Below are positions 17,198-51,146 of a stretch of DNA of 64,000 bases, in pieces; position 1 is the first letter of the stretch; each line of letters starts with the position of its first letter. A program made the position numbers and the translations under genes. Origin of the DNA: a virus; the IMG/VR virus record IMGVR_UViG_3300022226_000005, positions 3,140-67,139 of that record. One strand, given 5' to 3'. The notes under the pieces were generated by a model. The model was not told the DNA's origin. It did not search any database and was given only the letters and a program-made list of their open reading frames with translations.

Positions 17198-20100
17198 GTC
17201 TTGTTTAGCAAAGGTCAAGAAAGCTGGCTATGACACCAGCGCGTTGCCCCTGCGCGAGTTAGAGGCGTCGAGCGACCCTGTATACGTCATAGAGTCTGAG
17301 CTCAAAGCACTGCGCACTTCGCACGCAGAACTTTTCACTACGCGCGAACGACTGATGGAACAGCTGCGTCAGTTCTCTCCCGAGATGAACGAAGCTATTC
17401 AGGAGCACATCGATGAAGAAATCGCGATTAACGCGCCGAGGCCCGCCGATCCCTCCGTTGGGCCCGAAGCTCCATCAGCTGGACTTCGCAGCGGGCTGGC
17501 CGCAACGGCTCCTTCTGGCCTCCCTACACAGCGCCAGAAGCAGGCTCCTAAGCCCCTCAAAAACCTTGAAGCAGCCGCTGAGAAAAAGAAAGCCACGGTT
17601 GGAGAAGAAGAGGCGGCTAAAGTTAGCAAAGTTATGGCGGTCCTACGTAGAGCTCAGCGGGATGGCAAGGAGTACCACGAACTAAGTGCTTCGTACGCAG
17701 TGCGAAAGGCTACGGCTGCGGGCAAGATGAAAGAGATTCGGGCTATGTTTCCCGAAGAGACCTCGAACATTGCGGCTATGAAGAAATTTCAGCAGGTCGC
17801 TAAAAACCAAGTATCTACGGAGTCAAAAGATGAGGCACCAGTATTTAACAAGCGCCAGCAGAAACAGCTCGGTGCATACAACGAAGAGCTTATCGCACAA
17901 AGAAGCGATGAAGTGGCACCTCGTGGAGAAAAGCCGTCGAGCGATACTTCGCAGCTTGAGGGGGTCACCGAGCAGGAGCCAAAGGCAGTCGAGGTTAAAA
18001 TCGAGCCTTACGTTACTCAGAAAGGCAGCCGTGCAGAGCTGCCTGGTGTCGTGGGCCTTGCCCGACGCATCAAAAACCTCATCCCCGGAGCAACAATGTT
18101 CCGAGAGAGCGCAGGCGGAGGGCTAAGTACCTATGTTATCAAAGTCGATAATGCGGAGCAGGGCGCTTACGACGGGACACCGCAAGAACTTGCCTCGGCG
18201 TTGCTCAAAGTCTTCGAGGACGGCCGTAGGCTTAATCCAAATAAGCCTGAGAACAAGGGTAAGATCCTTGTACTGTATGACAAAAGCGGAGAAAAAGTAC
18301 CTGTTGGGACTATAAGCGTCACGAAACTAGGTGCGGTCGTTGACCAGACGACGAACGACGCCAACATGGCCCCCATCGAGAGGTCAGGTAAACAGTTCAA
18401 TGCGGGGCTTGCGTACCTGATGGCCGAGGGTGGGCTGACTCTACAGAAGACGGAGCCGAAAGTACCCAGCCCGCTCGACAACAAGTTCGTGAAAAAAGCG
18501 TGGGGTAAAATCCACCCGTGGGTCCGTAAGGTTATCGGCAGTCCTGCTTATATGTCGCCGGGTGAGATCGAGACGGCGATAAAAGATCACGGCCTCGTGC
18601 CCCTGGGTTTGGCGCGTTTCACCACGAACCAAATACTGCTTAATGCGGAGAGGATGAAGGCCGCTACGGAGCAGAAGCAAGAGGTAGTCATTTACCACGA
18701 AGCTGGACATATCGCGGACGGCGAGCTAAGCTATCGCCCACAGCAAGAGTGGTTGACCAACGATATGTTGGTGCGGTACTACAACGCCGGGAGAAACCCG
18801 AAAGACCCGTTGTTCGGGTTGTTTGAAATGATATTCTCGGACAAGAGCAAGTACCCCGAGACCGCGTGGCGTAAAGAGGTTATAGCCCAGCTTCACGTGG
18901 GTTATCATCTTATCCCTAATCAACTGAAAGCGTCCAGCCCTGAGGGCTACGCGCTGGTGGAGAGAATCAATGACGAGCTACAGCTCAAATCAGAATTTAT
19001 CGAAAGGGCAGAAGCGGAGCGCCGCGAAACAAGTGTTCCTGGAGGACGTCGAAGTGCTGGGCAAAGCGAAGGCGTTGCGGTATCGCAAGAAAAAGCAAAA
19101 GGAAGCACAGGCGCTCTTAGCAATGAAGCGGTAATAGACACCCGTGGAACGACAGTTGCTCAAGCCTCGCAGTACATCTCAACGCGGACGAAAGCCACTT
19201 CGGACTTTGACCCGACGGACATTGAGGAAGTTGCAAGCGAGCAAGAAGGCGAGGCCGACGTTAGGCAGTTCGAAACCGACGAGGCGCAGATTGCGCGCTC
19301 GACAGGCCGCGCTACGACTTCTCCGGAACTCGTTGGAGCGTCCATTCAACCGAAATCTCGGAACCCCTCAAATGAGGAAGCGAAGCGTATATTCGATACG
19401 ACAACCCAGCGTAAGGCATTCGGGAAGATTCCGAGCGCCTTTATTGCTGTTACCAATAAACTATTCAGTCAGCTGGGTATCAAGACTAAAGTTCTCGTGG
19501 TTGATCAAGCCGGTGCCAAACAGCTCCTCGCGGAAACTGGCTTGCCCTCGCAGTGGAAGACGAACCTTGAGCAGGTTCTAGCTGACCAGCCTGTAGGGCG
19601 GCTCATGCTCTCCGATAGCAGCAACGCCAACGAGCGTTTTGCCGTCATATACATCGACACCACGAAGTCAGACGCCAAACAGCAGCGTGCGCTACTGCAC
19701 GAGCTCGGTCACGTGGTGCAGCTGGCGAAGTTGGATCAAGCGTCGCCTGAAATTCAGAAGGCGCTACGGGACGCACACGAGCTCTCACGGTCACATCAGG
19801 AATTTGAGGAGTGGTTCGCTGACCAGCTGCTGCATTGGGCGAACTCGAAAAGTGTACCAAAATCGGTACTAGACAGGTTTTTCAAAGACCTGGCGCGTGT
19901 TTTGCGTCGGATTTACGCTAAATTCCGGGGGGCACACCCGACTTATGAGCAATATATGGATAGCCTTGTTGCTGCACAGCAACTCAAAGGCGGCATGCAG
20001 AAGCCCGCGTCCGGGAAATTCCGCAGGGATTGGATTGAGGACATGGCTAATAGCGTGGATTCGCCGTTTCTTGCGCGGCAAGAGCGCTCTTTTTACAACT

Positions 20101-43042: not shown

Positions 43043-43293
43043 TTTAGTAATCTCTTTTTTGCTATGAGTTCCTCAACTTGTTTTTTCAGGAACTCCCAGT
43101 CTTCGGTGAAGATGACAATTTTGCTTTTGTCATCGCGGCTTTGCGCAAGGGATAAATACTGCCGCCCATCCTGATTGATAAGGATGTTGACAAGCGTACG
43201 TGTCTGTGTGGGGTTAGGCGTGTCTTTGTGGGCGATGACAACTCCTGATATATGTGTGGGGGTAGCATCTGAGCTACCGTTGTTGCTGGTCAT
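43039..43293 (-). CDS. Hypothetical protein (paralogue of 42585..42827)
   Basis: DWEFLKKQVEELIAKKRLL; AGGA SD. Confidence 0.65.
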   Translation of the reverse strand: MTSNNGSSDATPTHISGVVIAHKDTPNPTQTRTLVNILINQDGRQYLSLAQSRDDKSKIVIFTEDWEFLKKQVEELIAKKRLLK

Positions 43294-43669
43294 GGTTTTT
43301 TCCTGTGTGGTAGTCATTGATTCCGAGCATTTCCCATTCGAAATGAATTTCGCGATGGCAGTTTGAACATAAGAGGTCACACTTTTGGAGTTCCGCGATA
43401 AGTGAAGCGTATGATTTTCCAAGCGATGTTCCAATACTGAATGTTTTCTCCGAGGGGACGCGGTGGTGAAATTCTAGAGCAGATATGCACTGGTTGTATC
43501 CGCAGATTTTGCACGATCCACCCAAAGTTTTTATGCACCAAAGTTTTTTCTTTTTGCGGTGTTTGGTGACAGCTTCTTGATTGCATTTGCGGCATCTCCA
43601 GCGCTTGTCATTCCACATGTGTTCGGTGTCGCCGTGGATGGCACATTTGTGTGTTTGGCTTGGGTTCAA
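43274..43669 (-). CDS. HNH endonuclease
   Basis: C..CG, ALEFHH, CDLLCSNCHREIH. Confidence 0.88.
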   Translation of the reverse strand: MNPSQTHKCAIHGDTEHMWNDKRWRCRKCNQEAVTKHRKKKKLWCIKTLGGSCKICGYNQCISALEFHHRVPSEKTFSIGTSLGKSYASLIAELQKCDLLCSNCHREIHFEWEMLGINDYHTGKNHDQQQR

Positions 43670-43680
43670 ATTATTGCCTT

Positions 43681-44196
43681 TTAGTTATCGAACCAATATA
43701 CGAGCCGAATGTGGTCCATGTTTTGTTTTTCGATAACATGGGGCCATTTGAGTTTGCGCTTGATGTGTGCTTCTACGCGTTCGTGCATTGGGCCTAGTGG
43801 TGAGTCCGCCCCGCGAAGTACGCGGTACTGTGCCACGAGGAGTCGAAACTCTGTTATGGTTATGTGGTTGGCGGAGTGTGCGTCGGCACCCCAGCGTTTG
43901 TATAAGGTGTCGTTTTTTGAGCATGCGTCGTCAGGCCACCCGCGTTTTTTGGCGGTGGGGCCTTCTGGTTCGTAGCGAACTCCAGGCGAGAGGATACCGA
44001 ATTTTTGGTACCAGCGGTGGTCGTCGATTTCGGACACGACCCACGGGCCTTCCCATGATATGTCTTCGATTTCTTCATCGGTGGCGTCGGGGCTAGGCTC
44101 GCGGTAGTATTCGTTCCGTTCCCATAGATCGAAGGTTTCCCATTTTTTGGTGGTTTCGCTGTAAATTTCGCTGTAAAGATGTATATCGCATCCCAT
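43681..44196 (-). CDS. Conserved phage hypothetical protein
   Basis: MGCDIH start, RG.P.D, RLVYWFDN end. Confidence 0.8.
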   Translation of the reverse strand: MGCDIHLYSEIYSETTKKWETFDLWERNEYYREPSPDATDEEIEDISWEGPWVVSEIDDHRWYQKFGILSPGVRYEPEGPTAKKRGWPDDACSKNDTLYKRWGADAHSANHITITEFRLLVAQYRVLRGADSPLGPMHERVEAHIKRKLKWPHVIEKQNMDHIRLVYWFDN

Positions 44197-44219
44197 GGTT
44201 TTTTCCTTATTGAATATAA

Positions 44220-44311
44220 TAGAACCGATCGGATTCGAACCGATGTCTGCTCAATCCGCCCTTATTACCAGGCTTCAAGCGAGCCGTGTTTCCTTATTAC
44301 ACCACGGTTGT
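44220..44311 (-). tRNA. tRNA-like element with 19-nt anticodon-loop insertion (nominal Ser-UGA)
   Basis: D stem GTGT/ACAC, anticodon stem GCTCG/TGAGC enclosing 26 nt, T arm ATCGG-TTCGAAT-CCGAT; C-C mismatch at 2:71; no CCA. Confidence 0.55.
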
Positions 44312-44362
44312 TTGGGCTACGAGCCCACCTCCGTACACGCTTCTCATAAGCGCTTTGAGGGT

Positions 44363-44593
44363 TCATTTGGTAGGGTGTTTCGCTAGTTGGCTTTTCAGGT
44401 TGCGTACCTGATAGGCGCGTTTGGCGAGCGCTTTGTTGGCGCGTTGGACTTCACCCAGGTAAATAAGTGATTGTAGGCGGTAACGATCGGCGAGGCGAGC
44501 GTTTTCTGTGGCCAGGTTTTTGTAGTAGCCGAGATGGCCTTCGAAGTTGGGTTGTTCGGGTTTTTCGATGAGTTTCAGGTGTTGTTGGGACAT
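44363..44593 (-). CDS. Small coiled-coil protein
   Basis: GAGGA SD before ATG 44593. Confidence 0.6.
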   Translation of the reverse strand: MSQQHLKLIEKPEQPNFEGHLGYYKNLATENARLADRYRLQSLIYLGEVQRANKALAKRAYQVRNLKSQLAKHPTK

Positions 44594-44628
44594 GTTGTTT
44601 CCTCTTGGTATGTGCGAAGTGCGAAGTG

Positions 44629-44698
44629 CGTAGCGCCACGGGATCGAACCGCGCCGTTTTAGTTTTGGAAACTTAACCGCCCCTTGGCTGAGCGCTAC
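44629..44698 (-). tRNA. tRNA-Trp(CCA)-like with reduced D arm
   Basis: Perfect acceptor GTAGCGC/GCGCTAC, T arm CGCGG-TTCGATC-CCGTG, loop TTCCAAA; 3-bp D stem with 4-nt loop; no CCA. Confidence 0.6.
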
Positions 44699-44704
44699 AT
44701 TGGT

Positions 44705-44776
44705 TGGTTGCGGGGGGTGGATTTGAACCACCGAGGTCCGGGTTATGAGCCCAGATTGAGACCGACCTCCCCCGCC
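44705..44776 (-). tRNA. Initiator-type tRNA-Met(CAT) with reduced D arm
   Basis: CTGGG-CTCATAA-CCCGG (three G-C pairs), 1:72 mismatch, T arm, encoded ACCA. Confidence 0.8.
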
Positions 44777-44863
44777 AGAATTTGCTCCGTGTTTGTTCGG
44801 CTGTCCTACAGCCACTCACCATCCGAGCAAGAAAATGAGAGGATCACGGCGTCCTTCGTGCTC

Positions 44864-44940
44864 TGGCTCCAAGAGCTGGGATCGAACCAGCGACCATCGC
44901 TTTAACAGAGCGGCGCTCTACCTGTCTGAGCTATCTTGGA
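44864..44940 (-). tRNA. tRNA-Asn(GTT)
   Basis: Canonical 77-nt cloverleaf with encoded CCA. Confidence 0.95.
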
Positions 44941-45162
44941 TTAATCTAGTTTACCGTACATGTACGATACCGGTTCGTCAAGCGAGAGGTCGAAATCGAC
45001 GTCGATGTCTTTGATTACTTCGGTGAGGATCTGTTTGATTTCGCTGTTTTTGTATCCGTCGACGGCGAGTCGTTCCTGGAGTTGTCGTTTTGCTTCGGTG
45101 TGCGTGGTTGCGTCGAGCATGTATTCGACATCAGTCAGTATTTTTGCTTTGACTTTCATCAT
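44941..45162 (-). CDS. Hypothetical protein
   Basis: GGAG SD; acidic C-terminus. Confidence 0.55.
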   Translation of the reverse strand: MMKVKAKILTDVEYMLDATTHTEAKRQLQERLAVDGYKNSEIKQILTEVIKDIDVDFDLSLDEPVSYMYGKLD

Positions 45163-45409
45163 TTTTGTGTTTCTCCAGTTCTTTACGAGCGAATTCTTCC
45201 TGAATTTCCAGGACGTGGCGGGCTTTGCCGATGTCTTCGATGTGCTTTTCGAGCCCGCCTTTGTTGCGGCGAAGGTATTTGTCAACTTTGCAGTATACAG
45301 CAGCTTGCAGGCCTTCGTAACCAAAGTTGTTGTATGTTGCTTCTAGCGGCTGCACTTTCATTGTTTTGTAGTGGTCGCCGCCGATTTGTTGGTCGAGAGG
45401 TGAGCTCAT
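45131..45409 (-). CDS. DUF3310-family protein
   Basis: QIGGDHY, QP, KY..R.K, EDIGKA. Confidence 0.85.
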   Translation of the reverse strand: MSSPLDQQIGGDHYKTMKVQPLEATYNNFGYEGLQAAVYCKVDKYLRRNKGGLEKHIEDIGKARHVLEIQEEFARKELEKHKNDESQSKNTD

Positions 45410-45648
45410 AGTGCTTTTTTCCGGTTGCCGAGGATTTGTATCGCTCGGGTGATTGTGTGTGCTACATGCTCACGCTTGAACACTTCTGCTCGCCCCACGG
45501 TGTTGATGTGACTGTCCAGGAAGTGCTGGAGCTCATCTTCGACAGTTTCGATTTCTTCGGCTGGCACAACAAATTCGAGCTGAATGGCGTAGCTGGTTTG
45601 GGTGCAGAGGGTTGCTGGAGTGTATTCCGTAATTGGCTTGGTAGGCAT
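45406..45648 (-). CDS. Hypothetical protein
   Basis: Packed ORF. Confidence 0.55.
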   Translation of the reverse strand: MPTKPITEYTPATLCTQTSYAIQLEFVVPAEEIETVEDELQHFLDSHINTVGRAEVFKREHVAHTITRAIQILGNRKKAL

Positions 45649-47719: not shown

Positions 47720-47805
47720 ATTATTTAGTCTCCATGCTGTGTCACTTTCAAAGTGGCACAGCACCTCGTACGACGTGCAAAGTGCGTCGCGGGGGTTAGT
47801 CTAAA

Positions 47806-47820
47806 TGAGAATGATTCTCA
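47806..47820. promoter_or_regulatory. Fur-box-like 7-1-7 palindrome
   Basis: TGAGAAT-G-ATTCTCA. Confidence 0.4.
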
Positions 47821-47980
47821 ATAAAGCCGTTTTTGTGTCACTTTGAGGGGGTACTGTGCCACTTTGAACGAACCAAAGTGGCACAGTTTTGTTCTCACTT
47901 TGTTCTCACTTTTGGGGTGAACGCGAGTTTAAATAGGGAGTATAAGGTACTGTTTATATTGTATTTTATATTATACATAG

Positions 47981-48022
47981 AAGTACTAAGTACGAAGTAC
48001 GAAGTGCTAAGTGCGAAGTGCT
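47981..48022 (+). repeat. Six tandem heptamers AAGT(A/G)C(G/T)
   Basis: aagtact aagtacg aagtacg aagtgct aagtgcg aagtgct. Confidence 0.9.
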
Positions 48023-48144
48023 GTGCCACTTGTGCCACTTTGAAACGGGTTCTCGCCATGGAAATTATTTTTTATCTTTTTGTTGCTGTGGCTGGAAGTC
48101 GAACCAAAGTGGCACAGCTAGTACTTTACTTTAACTGTTAGCTG

Positions 48145-49298: not shown

Positions 49299-51146
49299 CT
49301 ATTTTGAGTAGTTCTTTGCCCACCCACCTTCAGCTGCCAACGGTAAGTCGGGAGCCCAAGCAGGAGGCGTCGACATAACCTTATTGATGTAGGCGTAGAC
49401 GCCAGAGGCGTATTCTGTTTTGCAGATTGCGATAATCTCATCATGCGTGCTCGAGACCACCCTGATTTTGGCTTTCTGGTCGACCGTATAGATCTGCTCA
49501 GCGATGACGATGCGCGCCAGGGCCTGGATGATGTTCTCAAGGATTATTCCTCCGTAGAGTTTTTTACCTCCGTCGTAAACCCAAGATGCATCTTCTTCGT
49601 CCCACCGGAGGTTGTTGTAGTGTAAGACCATGCCGTTTGGGAGCGTGATCCCGCCGTGGCCAAATATGAGACCGTTGAATTCGTAAGGTTTACTATCTTT
49701 AATACGTGGTATAAGCGAGTTGAGCTTTTCCCACATCGCTTTTGTTTTTTCATTGACGGACCGCCATTTATTGACAGCGTTTTGTGCTTCTAGCTGGCTG
49801 AGGTGTACAGGAGGTGTGCCCATAAAGCCAAGTGCGGCATTAACGCGGAGCTTACGCCAACCCATGTTGTATCCAAGAGCCAGTTCGAGCATCTTCCCGA
49901 AGAATCTTTCGTGGATATGATCTTCTTTGTTACACTCATAACCGTAATGGTTACTAGCAGCATAAAGATATACATCCCCCCCGTTGCGAAGAATATCAAG
50001 CTTGTTGAGTTCCCCGCAAAACCAAGCGTTGAGGCGTAGCTCAATTTGAGCACTGTCAACCACAACCACACTGAACCCGTCAGGAGCGTAAATAGAACGG
50101 CGTAGTACACCACTAGCAGGGTTGTTAGGGTTGTATCTTGGGAGATTTTGAACATTTAAACCGTCCGCACCTGACCATCGGCCAGTGTGCGCTCCGTAGT
50201 AATTGAGGGGCATTGGCATAGCGCCTTTGAGCCCGATTTCATAAAAAGCGCGGGCCCTGGTCAGTTCAATGGTTGATTTGACCAAGGCCCTTGCTTCCCA
50301 AACTATCGCAAATTGCGGGTTGTCTACCTGCAGTTCTCTGTAGGCAAGGTCGGTTTGAGCGAAGGCGTAGGTAAGTTTCCCGGTTGGTTTACCAGTTACT
50401 TTATCCTTGCTTTTGCCCACCTTCATTGGCACTTTGAGGCCTTGAGACTCTATCCATCGTGCAAATTGCGGGTTTGATGACAATACCTTTTGGGACACTG
50501 GACATCGAGATAGTACGTCGTTGCGGTGATCTTCGAGGCGTTGTATTTCATCCGCCAGTAGATCTGTATCTAACTGGAGGACAGGCTCTGCTGCCATTCG
50601 TGCTGTGAGTGACATCAGATAGCGCTCCTGTTCGGGGAGCACGTCTTTTAGTAAGTCGTAAAGTTTGTATGTGAGTTCTACATCTTGTATGCAGTATTTC
50701 TTTAGGATTTCATTTTCTTCCTCCGTAAGTGTTCTCTTACCTTTTGTTTTATCGAGGCCGGTAAGTTTACCTTGTTTGACCCCGAGTATACGTATCGCAG
50801 AGTTCTCCAGAGTTTTTCGTTCTGAAGATGGAAGAAGCACGTTAGCAATTGATTTTGTGTCGAAGTACTGCGCAGGGCGATGGCCATAAACATCGTTGAG
50901 AATGAGCCCGTCGAATGTAAGGTTGTGGCCCACGAGGATGGAAGAACTCCATGAAACATTGCTGAGCGCGCTTCGTATGGATTCCGCAGTCTTGTAGTAG
51001 TGGGTTCGAGCCCTACCCACTTTGATTCCAACGCCTTGCACCTTGAACCTATCATCTCGTATGTAAAGCGCTGTTTTGATTTTTCTGAGTGAGTAGTCTT
51101 GGTCATAGTAGGTTTCAAAGTCAACAGTGACTGGTTGTAGTTGCAT
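49299..51146 (-). CDS. polA: DNA polymerase family A with 3'-5' exonuclease
   Basis: VDFET, HNLTFDG, YCIQD; TGRWS, QNLP, DSAQIELR, R...K...L...Y, HDE. Confidence 0.95.
   Translation of the reverse strand: MQLQPVTVDFETYYDQDYSLRKIKTALYIRDDRFKVQGVGIKVGRARTHYYKTAESIRSALSNVSWSSSILVGHNLTFDGLILNDVYGHRPAQYFDTKSIANVLLPSSERKTLENSAIRILGVKQGKLTGLDKTKGKRTLTEEENEILKKYCIQDVELTYKLYDLLKDVLPEQERYLMSLTARMAAEPVLQLDTDLLADEIQRLEDHRNDVLSRCPVSQKVLSSNPQFARWIESQGLKVPMKVGKSKDKVTGKPTGKLTYAFAQTDLAYRELQVDNPQFAIVWEARALVKSTIELTRARAFYEIGLKGAMPMPLNYYGAHTGRWSGADGLNVQNLPRYNPNNPASGVLRRSIYAPDGFSVVVVDSAQIELRLNAWFCGELNKLDILRNGGDVYLYAASNHYGYECNKEDHIHERFFGKMLELALGYNMGWRKLRVNAALGFMGTPPVHLSQLEAQNAVNKWRSVNEKTKAMWEKLNSLIPRIKDSKPYEFNGLIFGHGGITLPNGMVLHYNNLRWDEEDASWVYDGGKKLYGGIILENIIQALARIVIAEQIYTVDQKAKIRVVSSTHDEIIAICKTEYASGVYAYINKVMSTPPAWAPDLPLAAEGGWAKNYSK

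What the first reader, a model, noticed from the sequence alone, without database searches (positions are those of the whole stretch)
44220..44311. tRNA with a 19-nt insert at the canonical intron position
All arms are tRNA-like but the anticodon loop has 26 nt: CTTGAA-GCCTGGTAATAAGGGCGGA-T. The insert forms a hairpin (GCCT/GGGC) whose loop repeats the D-loop sequence GTAATAAGG. It is too short for group I splicing, and bacteria lack the archaeal/eukaryal endonuclease. The short variable loop does not fit Ser identity. Could be a non-coding decoy for anticodon nucleases or uncharged-tRNA sensors, or a substrate for an unknown splicing route.
Basis: partly seen in the sequence, partly recalled or inferred. 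Interest (0 to 1): 0.65.

Follow-up and report, generated by a model that had tools for sequence, protein, structure and literature searches.

The report
Phage tRNA-shaped RNA with kinked arm
The odd "tRNA with a 19-base insert" is a real, conserved gene of a small group of uncultured phages, but it is probably not a split tRNA: it looks like a tRNA-shaped RNA whose anticodon loop has been replaced by a kink-turn and a small hairpin, so it most likely binds a partner rather than reading codons.

Summary
On the minus strand at 44311-44220, ARAGORN and Rfam find a tRNA-like gene with about 20 extra bases in the anticodon loop.

It is not a decaying pseudogene. I found the same element at the same place in five other phage lineages (L001, L085/L086, L083, L269/L270). 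It lies between a conserved 76-aa gene and a conserved 171-aa gene. Every stem covaries, including the insert hairpin: 95% of cells are paired, 18 of 27 pairs change on both sides, and 0 of 500 shuffles reach this.

The intron reading fails on comparison:
- Only the window copy has U33.
- No excision frame gives a shared anticodon.
- The top two or three acceptor pairs are mismatched in every member.
- The phage has no RNA ligase or splicing endonuclease.

What stays invariant is a 3-4-nt bulge, then GAA opposite GGA, then a covarying 4-bp stem. That is the sequence signature of a Kt-7-type kink-turn. The body is closest to phage tRNA-Gln(UUG).

Best reading: a non-decoding tRNA mimic, probably derived from tRNA-Gln, with a kinked arm and an unknown partner. 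The D-loop repeat is real (p about 0.008) but is not conserved. No expression data could be obtained. I found no description of this family in Rfam 15 or in the open-access papers searched.

The parts
44220..44311 (-). tRNA-shaped RNA gene (body as called by ARAGORN and Rfam)
   Evidence: The family model R1 scores 120.6 bits over 44328-44212.
44314..44326 (-). 5' leader hairpin B, GGGC-TCGTA-GCCC, two bases before the body. Its sequence is almost invariant across the family.
   Evidence: RNAalifold predicts it on the MAFFT alignment that was not fitted to any structure.
44337..44353 (-). Leader hairpin A (GCGCTT-ATGAG-AAGCGT). The same GCGCC/GGCGT stem is seen in L001 and L269.
   Evidence: Read by hand. 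Weak evidence; not in the model.
44280..44284 (-). Anticodon-stem 5' strand (GCTCG), the C helix of the proposed kink-turn. It pairs with 44253-44249 (TGAGC).
   Evidence: All 5 pairs covary.
44277..44279 (-). 3-nt bulge CTT (L1-L3 of the proposed kink-turn)
   Evidence: Relatives have bulges of 3-4 nt here: CGT, (C)AGT, GAT, TCTC.
44274..44276 (-). Invariant GAA (positions 1b, 2b, 3b)
   Evidence: Invariant in all 6 family sequences.
44258..44273 (-). Insert hairpin GCCT-GGTAATAA-GGGC (the NC helix and its loop)
   Evidence: The stem covaries: GCCT/GGGC, GGGT/GCCT, GCGT/GCGT, GGGT/GCCC.
44255..44257 (-). Invariant GGA (positions 3n, 2n, 1n), followed by one extra U (44254)
   Evidence: Invariant in all 6 family sequences.
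44228..44244 (-). T arm ATCGG-TTCGAAT-CCGAT with a canonical T loop
   Evidence: Three of its 5 pairs covary.
44286..44302 (-). D arm GTGT-AATAAGGAA-ACAC with A14, G18, G19 and A21. This arm type is commonest in phage tRNA-Gln.
44363..44593 (-). Upstream 76-aa gene (P0002), 75-82% identical in relatives and always next to the element
43681..44196 (-). Downstream 171-aa gene (P0001, MGCDIH...YWFDN). It starts 23 nt after the RNA and served as the synteny anchor.
   Evidence: The AF2 model has pLDDT 87 and no PDB match.

Best explanation
This is a gene for a non-decoding, tRNA-shaped RNA, most likely derived from a phage tRNA-Gln(UUG) gene.

Shown by comparison:
- The tRNA elbow is kept intact: D arm with A14, G18, G19; a canonical T loop; a 4-nt variable loop AGAC.
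- The acceptor stem is reduced to 4-5 pairs with a permanently open top.
- The anticodon loop no longer exists. In its place are a 3-4-nt bulge, an invariant GAA facing an invariant GGA, a covarying 4-bp stem and a small loop.

Inferred from the sequence pattern: GAA/GGA next to a 3-nt bulge is the signature of a Kt-7-type kink-turn (G.A, A.G, A.G, then Watson-Crick pairs). A kink-turn would bend the distal hairpin sharply back.

Inferred from context: the RNA is made as part of the leftward early or middle polycistronic transcript, together with the tRNA-Asn, tRNA-Met and Trp-like genes and the flanking ORFs. It could then be cut out by the host's tRNA-end enzymes, since its elbow is the feature RNase P reads.

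Proposed and untested: it works as a tRNA mimic. The elbow would engage a factor that reads tRNA shape, while the kinked arm and the conserved 5' hairpin give specificity for a host or phage protein. It neither carries an amino acid nor reads a codon.
For: 1. Conservation in synteny. The element sits between P0002 and P0001 homologues in L001 (DNA polymerase 80% identical), L085/L086, L083 and L269/L270. The flanking P0001 homologues are only 54-78% identical.

2. Covariation. On the model-fitted alignment A6, 95% of cells are paired against 73% in shuffles; 18 of 27 pairs change on both sides; 0 of 500 shuffles reach this; partners slid by 1-3 columns give 26-51% paired. RNAalifold on the unfitted MAFFT alignment A5 returns the same six helices, with 12 of 24 pairs compensatory. 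The hand table shows insert-stem pairs 2 and 3 flipped from C-G to G-C.

3. Not a decoding tRNA. U33 is present only in the window copy. Loop starts are CUUGAA, CGUGAA, CAGUGAA, GAUGAA and UCUCGAA. Pair 2:71 is a pyrimidine-pyrimidine mismatch in four lineages and C.A in L269/L270. Pair 1:72 is unpaired in every relative; only the window copy pairs (A-U). Only the window copy passes Rfam's tRNA threshold: L085 scores 27 bits, and L001 and L083 are not reported. ARAGORN calls none of the relatives.

4. Kink-turn pattern. UGAAG and GGA are invariant while both flanking stems vary. L269/L270 read UCCG-GAU-GAA-GCGU[loop]GCGU-GGA-CGGA. L001 reads ...CG-C-AGU-GAA-GGGU[loop]GCCU-GGA-G-UG.... Both match the Kt-7 layout (C stem, 3-nt bulge, GAA, against GGA and C stem). 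The layout itself is from my knowledge of the H. marismortui Kt-7 consensus.

5. Ancestry. The D arm GTGGTGTAA...AACAC belongs mostly to phage tRNA-Gln (67 of about 113 hits). Thirteen of the 20 best ordinary tRNAs under model R1 are tRNA-Gln (12 UUG, 1 CUG). Their loops read CU-UUG-AA, so the invariant GAA could be G36-A37-A38.

6. No sigma-70-like promoter and no convincing terminator lie around the element.
Against: The kink-turn is inferred from sequence alone.

The window and L085 copies carry one extra U on the non-bulged strand, or else a C.U pair with a 2-nt bulge. L083 has a 31-nt insertion between GAA and the stem. The possible distant cousin L084:23-139 has an extended arm without the GA motif.

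No L7Ae-type kink-turn binding protein is encoded, and the likely hosts (unknown) may have none.

The family is small: six sequences from five lineages, so some invariance may simply be shared ancestry. A6 was fitted to the model's structure, which inflates pair counts. A purely cis-acting role in the mRNA is not excluded.
Confidence: 0.55

Rival explanations
1. It is a cis-acting part of the mRNA. A tRNA-like 'punctuation' or leader element would draw RNase P to its 5' side and RNase E to the A/U-rich 3' tail. That would separate the P0002 and P0001 cistrons and so set the stability or translation of the downstream gene. The kinked arm would be a protein or ribosome contact.
For: The element always lies about 20-25 nt upstream of a ribosome-binding site. 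It precedes P0001 in five lineages and another small ORF in L084. No promoter or terminator flanks it. The 3' tail is A/U-rich in all members. Relatives L088-L091 carry a different structured-looking stretch of about 240 nt in the same slot, sharing the 12-mer GGTGGGCTCGTA.
Against: A processing signal needs only the acceptor and T helix. That does not explain the strict conservation of GAA/GGA, of the covarying distal hairpin and of the 5' hairpin sequence. P0001 homologues do without the element in L092, and in L084 it lies three genes upstream instead. No alternative pairing with the ribosome-binding site is conserved.
Confidence: 0.2
2. It is a real pre-tRNA with a short intron, removed by an unknown bacterial or phage route (cleavage plus ligation). 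In the window copy this would give tRNA(UGA) if cut at 37/38, or tRNA-Pro(CGG/UGG) if cut so that ...GGAU closes the loop.
For: In the window copy, removing 19 nt leaves a perfect 7-nt loop, CUUGAAU or CUCGGAU (read by hand). A73 is shared by all members. Phage tRNAs with unexplained inserts are on record in Lak megaphages (PMC6784885). Other phage tRNA genes with 13-17-nt hairpins at the 3' side of the anticodon loop turned up here (L093, L158, L207, L211; L138, L206, L208).
Against: No relative yields U33 in any frame: G33 in L085, A33 in L001, none in L269. The anticodons that would result differ between members. The acceptor stem lacks pairs 1:72 and 2:71 in nearly all members, and 3:70 as well in L085 and L269. 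No bulge-helix-bulge motif can be drawn. No RtcB, RNA ligase or splicing endonuclease is in the 68.7-kb genome or among the roughly 60 ORFs scanned against Pfam. An intron that is only removed would not need invariant GAA/GGA.
Confidence: 0.1
3. It is a decoy for a host anticodon nuclease or another tRNA-targeting defence. The RNA would soak up the enzyme and so protect host or phage tRNAs.
For: Phage tRNAs are known to counter tRNA-cleaving defences, for example T5 tRNA-Tyr against retrons (bioRxiv 10.1101/2023.03.15.532788, listed). The element lies in a tRNA cluster that includes other odd tRNAs.
Against: Anticodon nucleases read the anticodon loop, which is absent here. The letters at the anticodon position are the least conserved of the arm. 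A decoy for an enzyme that reads the elbow or the 3' end remains possible, but that merges with the best explanation.
Confidence: 0.06
4. It is a decaying tRNA pseudogene that picked up a chance insertion.
For: The MFE of the single sequence is no better than that of shuffles (z = -0.61). The acceptor stem is imperfect.
Against: The element is conserved in five lineages with compensatory changes in every helix, including the insert.
Confidence: 0.02

Closest known systems
Canonical bacterial and phage tRNA, especially phage tRNA-Gln(UUG) (Rfam RF00005)
   Same: D arm, T arm, variable loop and the tertiary-pair nucleotides (U8, A14, G18, G19, T54-A58). The D-arm sequence is typical of phage tRNA-Gln. 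It lies in a tRNA cluster.
   Different: There is no 7-nt anticodon loop and U33 is not conserved. Only 4-5 acceptor pairs form, and the top is open. There are 19-51 extra nt in the arm. A conserved 5' hairpin precedes the body. Relatives fail the Rfam threshold.
Kink-turn motifs (H. marismortui Kt-7; the kink-turns of T-box stem I and the SAM-I riboswitch)
   Same: C helix, 3-nt bulge, GAA on the bulged strand facing GGA on the other, then a Watson-Crick helix. A.G at position 3b.3n is as in Kt-7.
   Different: I know of no kink-turn embedded in a bacterial tRNA-like body. The window and L085 copies have one extra U on the non-bulged strand. No L7Ae-family protein is encoded. The 3D fold is untested.
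Archaeal pre-tRNA-Trp intron carrying a box C/D (kink-turn) guide RNA
   Same: A kink-turn-forming element sits inside the anticodon-loop region of a tRNA gene.
   Different: There are no C box (RUGAUGA) or D box (CUGA) sequences and no bulge-helix-bulge motif. The insert is about 20 nt, not about 100. The source is a phage of bacteria, with no fibrillarin, Nop5 or splicing endonuclease.
'Enigmatic' introns of Lak megaphage tRNAs (Devoto et al. 2019, PMC6784885)
   Same: Unexplained non-group-I inserts in the anticodon loops of phage tRNA genes.
   Different: One Lak insert is reported to be able to encode a tRNA itself, and it sits in an otherwise recognisable tRNA gene (a putative tRNA-Thr) for which copies without the intron exist. 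Here the insert is a 4-bp hairpin, the host 'tRNA' has lost its anticodon and acceptor top, and no insert-free allele was found.
tRNA-like stable RNAs of phages and bacteria: T4 species 1 and 2 RNAs (rnaC, rnaD); YrlA Y-RNA-like RNAs
   Same: Small non-decoding RNAs with tRNA-like modules; the T4 ones are encoded in or beside a phage tRNA cluster. Their function is unknown or is protein tethering.
   Different: There is no sequence or Rfam match. YrlA has the opposite topology: its ends lie at the anticodon side and its acceptor is closed by a loop. It also has a Ro-binding helix, which is absent here.

Membership tests
Canonical tRNA (RF00005) | Score above the curated Rfam threshold | tested here: met
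   The window copy scores 44 bits against 29. Relatives do not pass: L085 scores 27.1 bits, and L001, L083 and L084 are not reported.
Canonical tRNA (RF00005) | 7-bp acceptor stem | tested here: not met
   2:71 is C.C, U.C, C.U, C.C or C.A. 1:72 pairs only in the window copy. 3:70 is also broken in L085 and L269. Only 4-5 pairs are kept, with covariation at 4:69, 5:68 and 6:67.
Canonical tRNA (RF00005) | 7-nt anticodon loop with U33 and a purine at 37 | tested here: not met
   There are 24-51 nt between the stem halves. U33 is present only in the window copy.
Canonical tRNA (RF00005) | D and T arms with the elbow nucleotides (U8, A14, G18, G19, T54, Psi55, C56, A58) | tested here: met
   Present in all members.
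Group I intron in a tRNA anticodon loop | Catalytic core P3-P9, more than about 200 nt, with a U.G pair at the 5' splice site | tested here: not met
   The insert is 19-20 nt (51 nt in L083). There is no Rfam intron hit at E <= 1.
Archaeal/eukaryal protein-spliced tRNA intron | Bulge-helix-bulge motif (two 3-nt bulges 4 bp apart) at the exon-intron junctions | tested here: not met
   Drawn by hand. The junction is a 6x4 internal loop with no anticodon-intron helix and only one bulged strand.
Archaeal/eukaryal protein-spliced tRNA intron | Splicing endonuclease and ligase available | tested here: not met
   PF01974, PF01139 and PF09414 are absent from the 68.7-kb genome, and controls rang. The host enzymes are unknown.
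Kink-turn (Kt-7 type) | C helix, 3-nt bulge, tandem G.A/A.G, then the NC helix, seen as a sequence pattern | tested here: met
   Exact in L269/L270 and L001. The window and L085 copies have one extra U. L083 has an insertion after GAA. GAA and GGA are invariant while both helices covary.
Kink-turn (Kt-7 type) | Tight kink in three dimensions, with the A-minor contacts of the G.A pairs | not testable with these tools
   No RNA 3D prediction or probing was available.
Box C/D guide RNA | C box RUGAUGA and D box CUGA | tested here: not met
   The sequences are UGAAG and GGA.
YrlA / bacterial Y RNA | 5' and 3' ends form the Ro-binding helix at the anticodon side; the acceptor-like stem is closed | tested here: not met
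   The topology is the opposite (ends at the acceptor side). There is no Rfam hit.
Lak-type tRNA-shaped introns | The insert itself folds like a small tRNA (feature as summarised in this scan's earlier notes; Devoto 2019 reports it for one insert only) | tested here: not met
   The insert is a single 4-bp hairpin of 16 nt plus the GAA/GGA flanks.

The most novel reading that the evidence does not exclude
A previously undescribed class of phage RNA: a tRNA-Gln-derived mimic that keeps the tRNA elbow but has turned its anticodon loop into a kink-turn-borne hairpin. Phages would use it in trans to capture or redirect a host factor that recognises tRNA shape, such as a processing or modification enzyme, a ribosome-associated factor or a tRNA-directed defence protein. 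It might act as a small ribonucleoprotein with the strongly conserved neighbouring 76-aa protein.
Probability: 0.25. Interest if true: 0.75.

Novelty: new variant of a known kind. Interest (0 to 1): 0.6.

Why it matters
Phage tRNA genes are usually read as codon-usage helpers or, more recently, as counter-measures to tRNA-cleaving defences. This element shows a tRNA gene turned into something else while staying under clear structural selection: the decoding parts (anticodon loop, acceptor end) are gone, the shape-defining elbow is kept, and a recognisable RNA building block (a kink-turn) has been added. If the reading holds, it gives a compact natural example of tRNA mimicry in phages, with a defined handle for pull-downs. 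It is also a caution for annotation: gene finders that report 'tRNA with intron' or 'tRNA-???' in phages can be hiding non-decoding RNAs. Finally, it is a candidate new RNA family for Rfam, with a seed alignment of six sequences.

Tried and rejected
- Close relatives by DNA in the phage collection: only the neighbouring tRNA-Asn matched.
- Exact-pattern scans: the T arm gave nothing. The D-arm pattern gave L001 plus one chance hit, L081.
- The single metagenome scan was wasted: my pattern CGTAGCCCAA...GTGGTGTAA matches the rplD gene and other chance sites.
- Arm-specific patterns found only L001 in IMG/VR and one chance hit in GTDB genomes.
- A protein-alignment scan of IMG/VR found only L001 again.
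- Five contigs with P0001 homologues had no retrievable DNA. The four that extend far enough upstream show gaps of about 155-170 nt there; the fifth, begins 241 nt upstream of the gene with nothing called before it. These are probably further members.
- P0001: the AF2 model is good (pLDDT 87), but there is no match in PDB by Foldseek (best E 0.89) or VIA-align (best Z 3.9). It has no Pfam family and only a PHROG of unknown function. It gives no clue to the RNA's role.
- Considered and dropped, all by hand: a kissing interaction between the 5' hairpin loop and the arm loop (no covariation: L083 and L269 share the arm loop but differ in the 5' loop); reading the 5' hairpin as a tRNA-Thr(CGU) anticodon-arm mimic (U33 is not conserved and the stem is only 3-4 bp); an alternative cloverleaf using the insert as a D arm; pairing of the open acceptor top with leader or trailer.
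- Model R1 also hits ordinary tRNAs at 23-47 bits, so the 37-bit hit in L084 counts only as a possible cousin.
- Literature searches for phage tRNA inserts, tRNA-like plus kink-turn, and extended anticodon arms found no description of this element.

Full report
WHAT IS THERE

The window is 64 kb of a 68.7-kb uncultured phage record that CheckV rates complete. ARAGORN reports 'tRNA-??? anticodon (tgaa)' on the minus strand at 44311-44220. Rfam's tRNA model scores it 44 bits (threshold 29), with 21 nt inserted where two loop positions are expected.

Read by hand, the pieces are, in order:
- acceptor 5' strand ACAACCG, pairing with the 3' strand CGGTTCT (2:71 is C.C)
- U8 G9
- D arm GTGT-AATAAGGAA-ACAC
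- G26
- anticodon stem GCTCG/TGAGC enclosing 26 nt, CTTGAAGCCTGGTAATAAGGGCGGAT
- variable loop AGAC
- T arm ATCGG-TTCGAAT-CCGAT
- A73

A repeat of that length arises in 40 of 5000 shuffles.

CONTEXT

The gene is the last of a leftward cluster: tRNA-Asn (44940-44864), a tRNA-Met with a reduced D arm (44779-44705), and a Trp-like gene (44700-44629). A 76-aa ORF follows (P0002, 44593-44363), then this element, and 23 nt later a 171-aa ORF (P0001, 44196-43681). No sigma-70-like promoter and no convincing terminator lie in 43500-45500, so the element is probably part of a polycistronic transcript.

RELATIVES

The DNA polymerase (49299-51146) found one close relative, L001 (80% identity), and many distant ones without tRNAs. 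blastn showed that window 44583-43681 aligns with L001 16991-17881 straight across the element. L001 has a homologous tRNA-like gene with an insert of similar size.

Homologues of P0001 gave further contigs:
- L083, L085/L086 and L269/L270 carry the element in the same slot.
- L092 lacks it.
- L084 has a possible distant cousin three genes upstream.
- L088-L091 carry a different structured-looking region of about 240 nt.
- Five more contigs gave no retrievable DNA; the four that extend far enough upstream show gaps of the right size.

In all there are six sequences from five lineages, whose flanking P0001 proteins are 54-78% identical.

IS IT UNDER SELECTION?

Yes. A hand table shows compensatory changes in every variable helix:
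- All five anticodon-stem pairs vary.
- Three of five T-stem pairs vary.
- Acceptor pair 6:67 occurs as C-G, G-C and U-A.
- The insert stem occurs as GCCU/GGGC, GGGU/GCCU, GCGU/GCGU and GGGU/GCCC, so two pairs flip between C-G and G-C.

RNAalifold on the plain MAFFT alignment A5 predicts the same six helices, with 12 of 24 pairs compensatory. On the model-fitted alignment A6, 95% of cells pair against 73% in shuffles, 18 of 27 pairs change on both sides, 0 of 500 shuffles reach this, and slid partners give 26-51%. The fitted alignment leans towards the structure, so I give more weight to and the hand table. A pseudogene is excluded.

IS THE INSERT AN INTRON?

The comparison says no, for five reasons:
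1. The neat 'CTTGAA | insert | T' is peculiar to the window copy. The others begin CGTGAA (L085), CAGTGAA (L001), GATGAA (L269/L270) and TCTCGAA (L083). No relative has U33 in any frame that removes a contiguous block to leave 7 nt, and the resulting anticodons would differ.
2. The acceptor stem keeps only its lower 4-5 pairs. 2:71 is a mismatch in all members, 1:72 pairs only in the window copy, and 3:70 is also open in L085 and L269. The top of the stem is what aminoacyl-tRNA synthetases, EF-Tu and the CCA enzyme use (established knowledge).
3. No bulge-helix-bulge motif can be drawn, and the insert is far too small for a group I core.
4. The genome has no RtcB, no RNA ligase and no splicing endonuclease. 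These six-frame searches had ringing controls. Pfam scans of about 60 ORFs found nothing related.
5. The letters that are invariant are not those an intron would need.

WHAT IS INVARIANT

Across the family, UGAAG on the 5' side (CGAAA in L083) and GGA on the 3' side never change, while the helices on both sides covary. The layout is:
anticodon stem - 3-4 unpaired nt - GAA - 4-bp stem - 5-8-nt loop - 4-bp stem - GGA - (0-1 nt) - anticodon stem.

L269/L270 read UCCG GAU GAA GCGU [GUCACA] GCGU GGA CGGA. L001 reads CG-C AGU GAA GGGU [..] GCCU GGA G-UG. From my knowledge of the motif, this is exactly the arrangement of H. marismortui Kt-7: C helix, 3-nt bulge, G.A, A.G, A.G at 3b.3n, then Watson-Crick pairs.

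The window and L085 copies deviate by one extra U on the non-bulged strand. L083 has the same terminal hairpin as L269 (GGGU-GUCACA-GCCC next to GGA) but carries 31 extra nt after GAA. I therefore read the 'insert' as a kink-turn plus its distal helix. This rests on sequence pattern only.

No L7Ae-family gene is present. Kink-turns with A.G at 3b.3n are known to fold in Mg2+ without protein (established knowledge), so a protein is not required.

ORIGIN

The D-arm sequence GTGGTGTAA..AACAC is found in IMG/VR mostly in tRNA-Gln: 67 of about 113 ARAGORN-typed hits. Among ordinary tRNAs scored by the family model R1, 13 of the top 20 are tRNA-Gln (12 UUG, 1 CUG). Those loci were fished with the D-arm pattern, so this is suggestive rather than proof. 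Their anticodon loops read C-U-U-U-G-A-A. The invariant GAA may therefore be the old G36-A37-A38, with the hairpin added 3' of it.

OTHER FEATURES

A hairpin, GGGC-YCGUA-GCCC (UCGAC in L269), sits 2-3 nt upstream of the body in all members. Its sequence is almost invariant. It is unique in the window, so it is not a repeated promoter or terminator. Its role is unknown: it could be a processing determinant or a protein site.

The D-loop repeat is not conserved. The relatives' D loops read AAGCGGGAA, AATTAAGGCA, AACTGGAA and AATAATGGCA, so I treat the repeat as specific to this copy. Notably, the 10-mer AATAAGGAAA of the D loop recurs at the ribosome-binding site of P0001 (44211-44202).

MECHANISM AND ODDS

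- Shown: a conserved, structured, tRNA-shaped RNA gene that cannot decode as it stands.
- Inferred (about 0.55): the arm contains a kink-turn.
- Inferred (about 0.75): it is never converted to a decoding tRNA.
- Proposed (about 0.25-0.3): it acts in trans as a tRNA mimic, with the elbow for a tRNA-shape reader and the kinked arm and 5' hairpin for a specific partner.

The main rival is a cis role as a processing or stability element for the downstream gene (0.2). Splicing by an unknown route stands at about 0.1, an anticodon-nuclease decoy at about 0.06, and a pseudogene at about 0.02.

COMPARISON WITH THE KNOWN

The element is not in Rfam 15 except as a weak tRNA. Full-text searches found no description of it.

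The nearest published oddity is the 'enigmatic' tRNA introns of Lak megaphages (PMC6784885). One of them may itself encode a tRNA, and it sits in an otherwise recognisable tRNA gene of which copies without the intron exist. Archaeal pre-tRNA-Trp carries a kink-turn (box C/D) in its intron, but the boxes, size, splicing motif and enzymes are all different. YrlA and the T4 species 1 and 2 RNAs are functional analogies only.

Earlier notes of this scan describe other phage tRNAs with inserts (tRNA-shaped mini-introns; a two-anticodon-arm tRNA-Ile). None matched this sequence.

VERDICT

This is a new variant within the known kind 'phage tRNA-like RNAs'. It is moderately to highly interesting because of the clean covariation and the recognisable motif. 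It is limited by a small family and by the complete lack of expression data.

Noticed in passing
L001:7136-7290 (minus strand): The closest relative phage carries a fully canonical tRNA with anticodon CUA (an amber suppressor; ARAGORN calls it 'Pyl'; Rfam 62 bits). Next to it is a 69-nt tRNA whose anticodon arm is truncated (Rfam 48.5 bits, 5 positions deleted). This may point to TAG recoding or suppression in that phage. The window has no counterpart.
   Followed up: no
L088:376-605; L089:965-1205; L090:430-670; L091:86-326: In these relatives the slot upstream of the P0001 homologue holds a different GC-rich region of about 240 nt with many hairpins, including CGTCGC-TTCG-GCGACG. It shares the 12-mer GGTGGGCTCGTA with the window's leader. 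There is no Rfam hit at E <= 0.1. It may be another structured RNA.
   Followed up: no
L093:2479-2542; L158; L207; L211; and L138:4145-4210; L206; L208: Two other families of phage tRNA genes have intact 7-bp acceptor stems and hairpin inserts in the 3' half of the anticodon loop. One has a 13-nt insert with the stem TGGT/ACCA. The other is Ile(UAU)-like, with a 17-nt hairpin carrying GTAA in its loop. Short hairpin inserts at this place seem to recur in phages.
   Followed up: partly
L084:23-139: A tRNA-like element with its own 5' hairpin (AGGGAG-AGCAAAA-CTCCCT), a nearly complete acceptor stem, and a 19-nt extension of the anticodon arm (GGGGC-AGAGA-GCCCT with a 1x3 internal loop) but no GAA/GGA motif. 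It scores 37 bits with the family model, within the range of ordinary tRNAs. It is a possible distant cousin.
   Followed up: partly
window 44202-44211, 44289-44298 and 44260-44268 (minus strand): The motif AATAAGG(AAA) occurs three times in this copy only: in the D loop, in the insert loop, and at the ribosome-binding site of the downstream gene.
   Followed up: partly
window 44629-44700 (minus strand): A Trp-like (CCA) tRNA gene that neither ARAGORN nor Rfam calls in the window. ARAGORN does call its homologue in L001 (15760-15832) tRNA-Trp, and L269 has a version with a normal D arm (about 488-560). Another first-stage note already covers it.
   Followed up: no
window 43681-44196 (P0001) and 44363-44593 (P0002): P0001 gives a confident AF2 model (pLDDT 87) with no PDB match (best Z 3.9) and has invariant MGCDIH, DAHS-N and YWFDN motifs. 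P0002 is a 76-aa protein, 75-82% identical across lineages and so more conserved than P0001. In L089-L091 its homologue lies downstream of P0001 instead of upstream.
   Followed up: partly
window 43277-43669 (minus strand): An HNH endonuclease gene (PHROG 2255, E 6e-26) lies just downstream of P0001, beside the tRNA cluster. L001 has one at 18253-18726.
   Followed up: no
L001:12855-12951: A near-perfect hairpin of about 90 nt that matches plant microRNA precursor models by chance (43 bits, below threshold). It lies in the stretch that aligns with the window's origin-like region at 47724-48036.
   Followed up: no
Whether they act on the phage's unusual tRNA-like RNAs was not examined.
   Followed up: no
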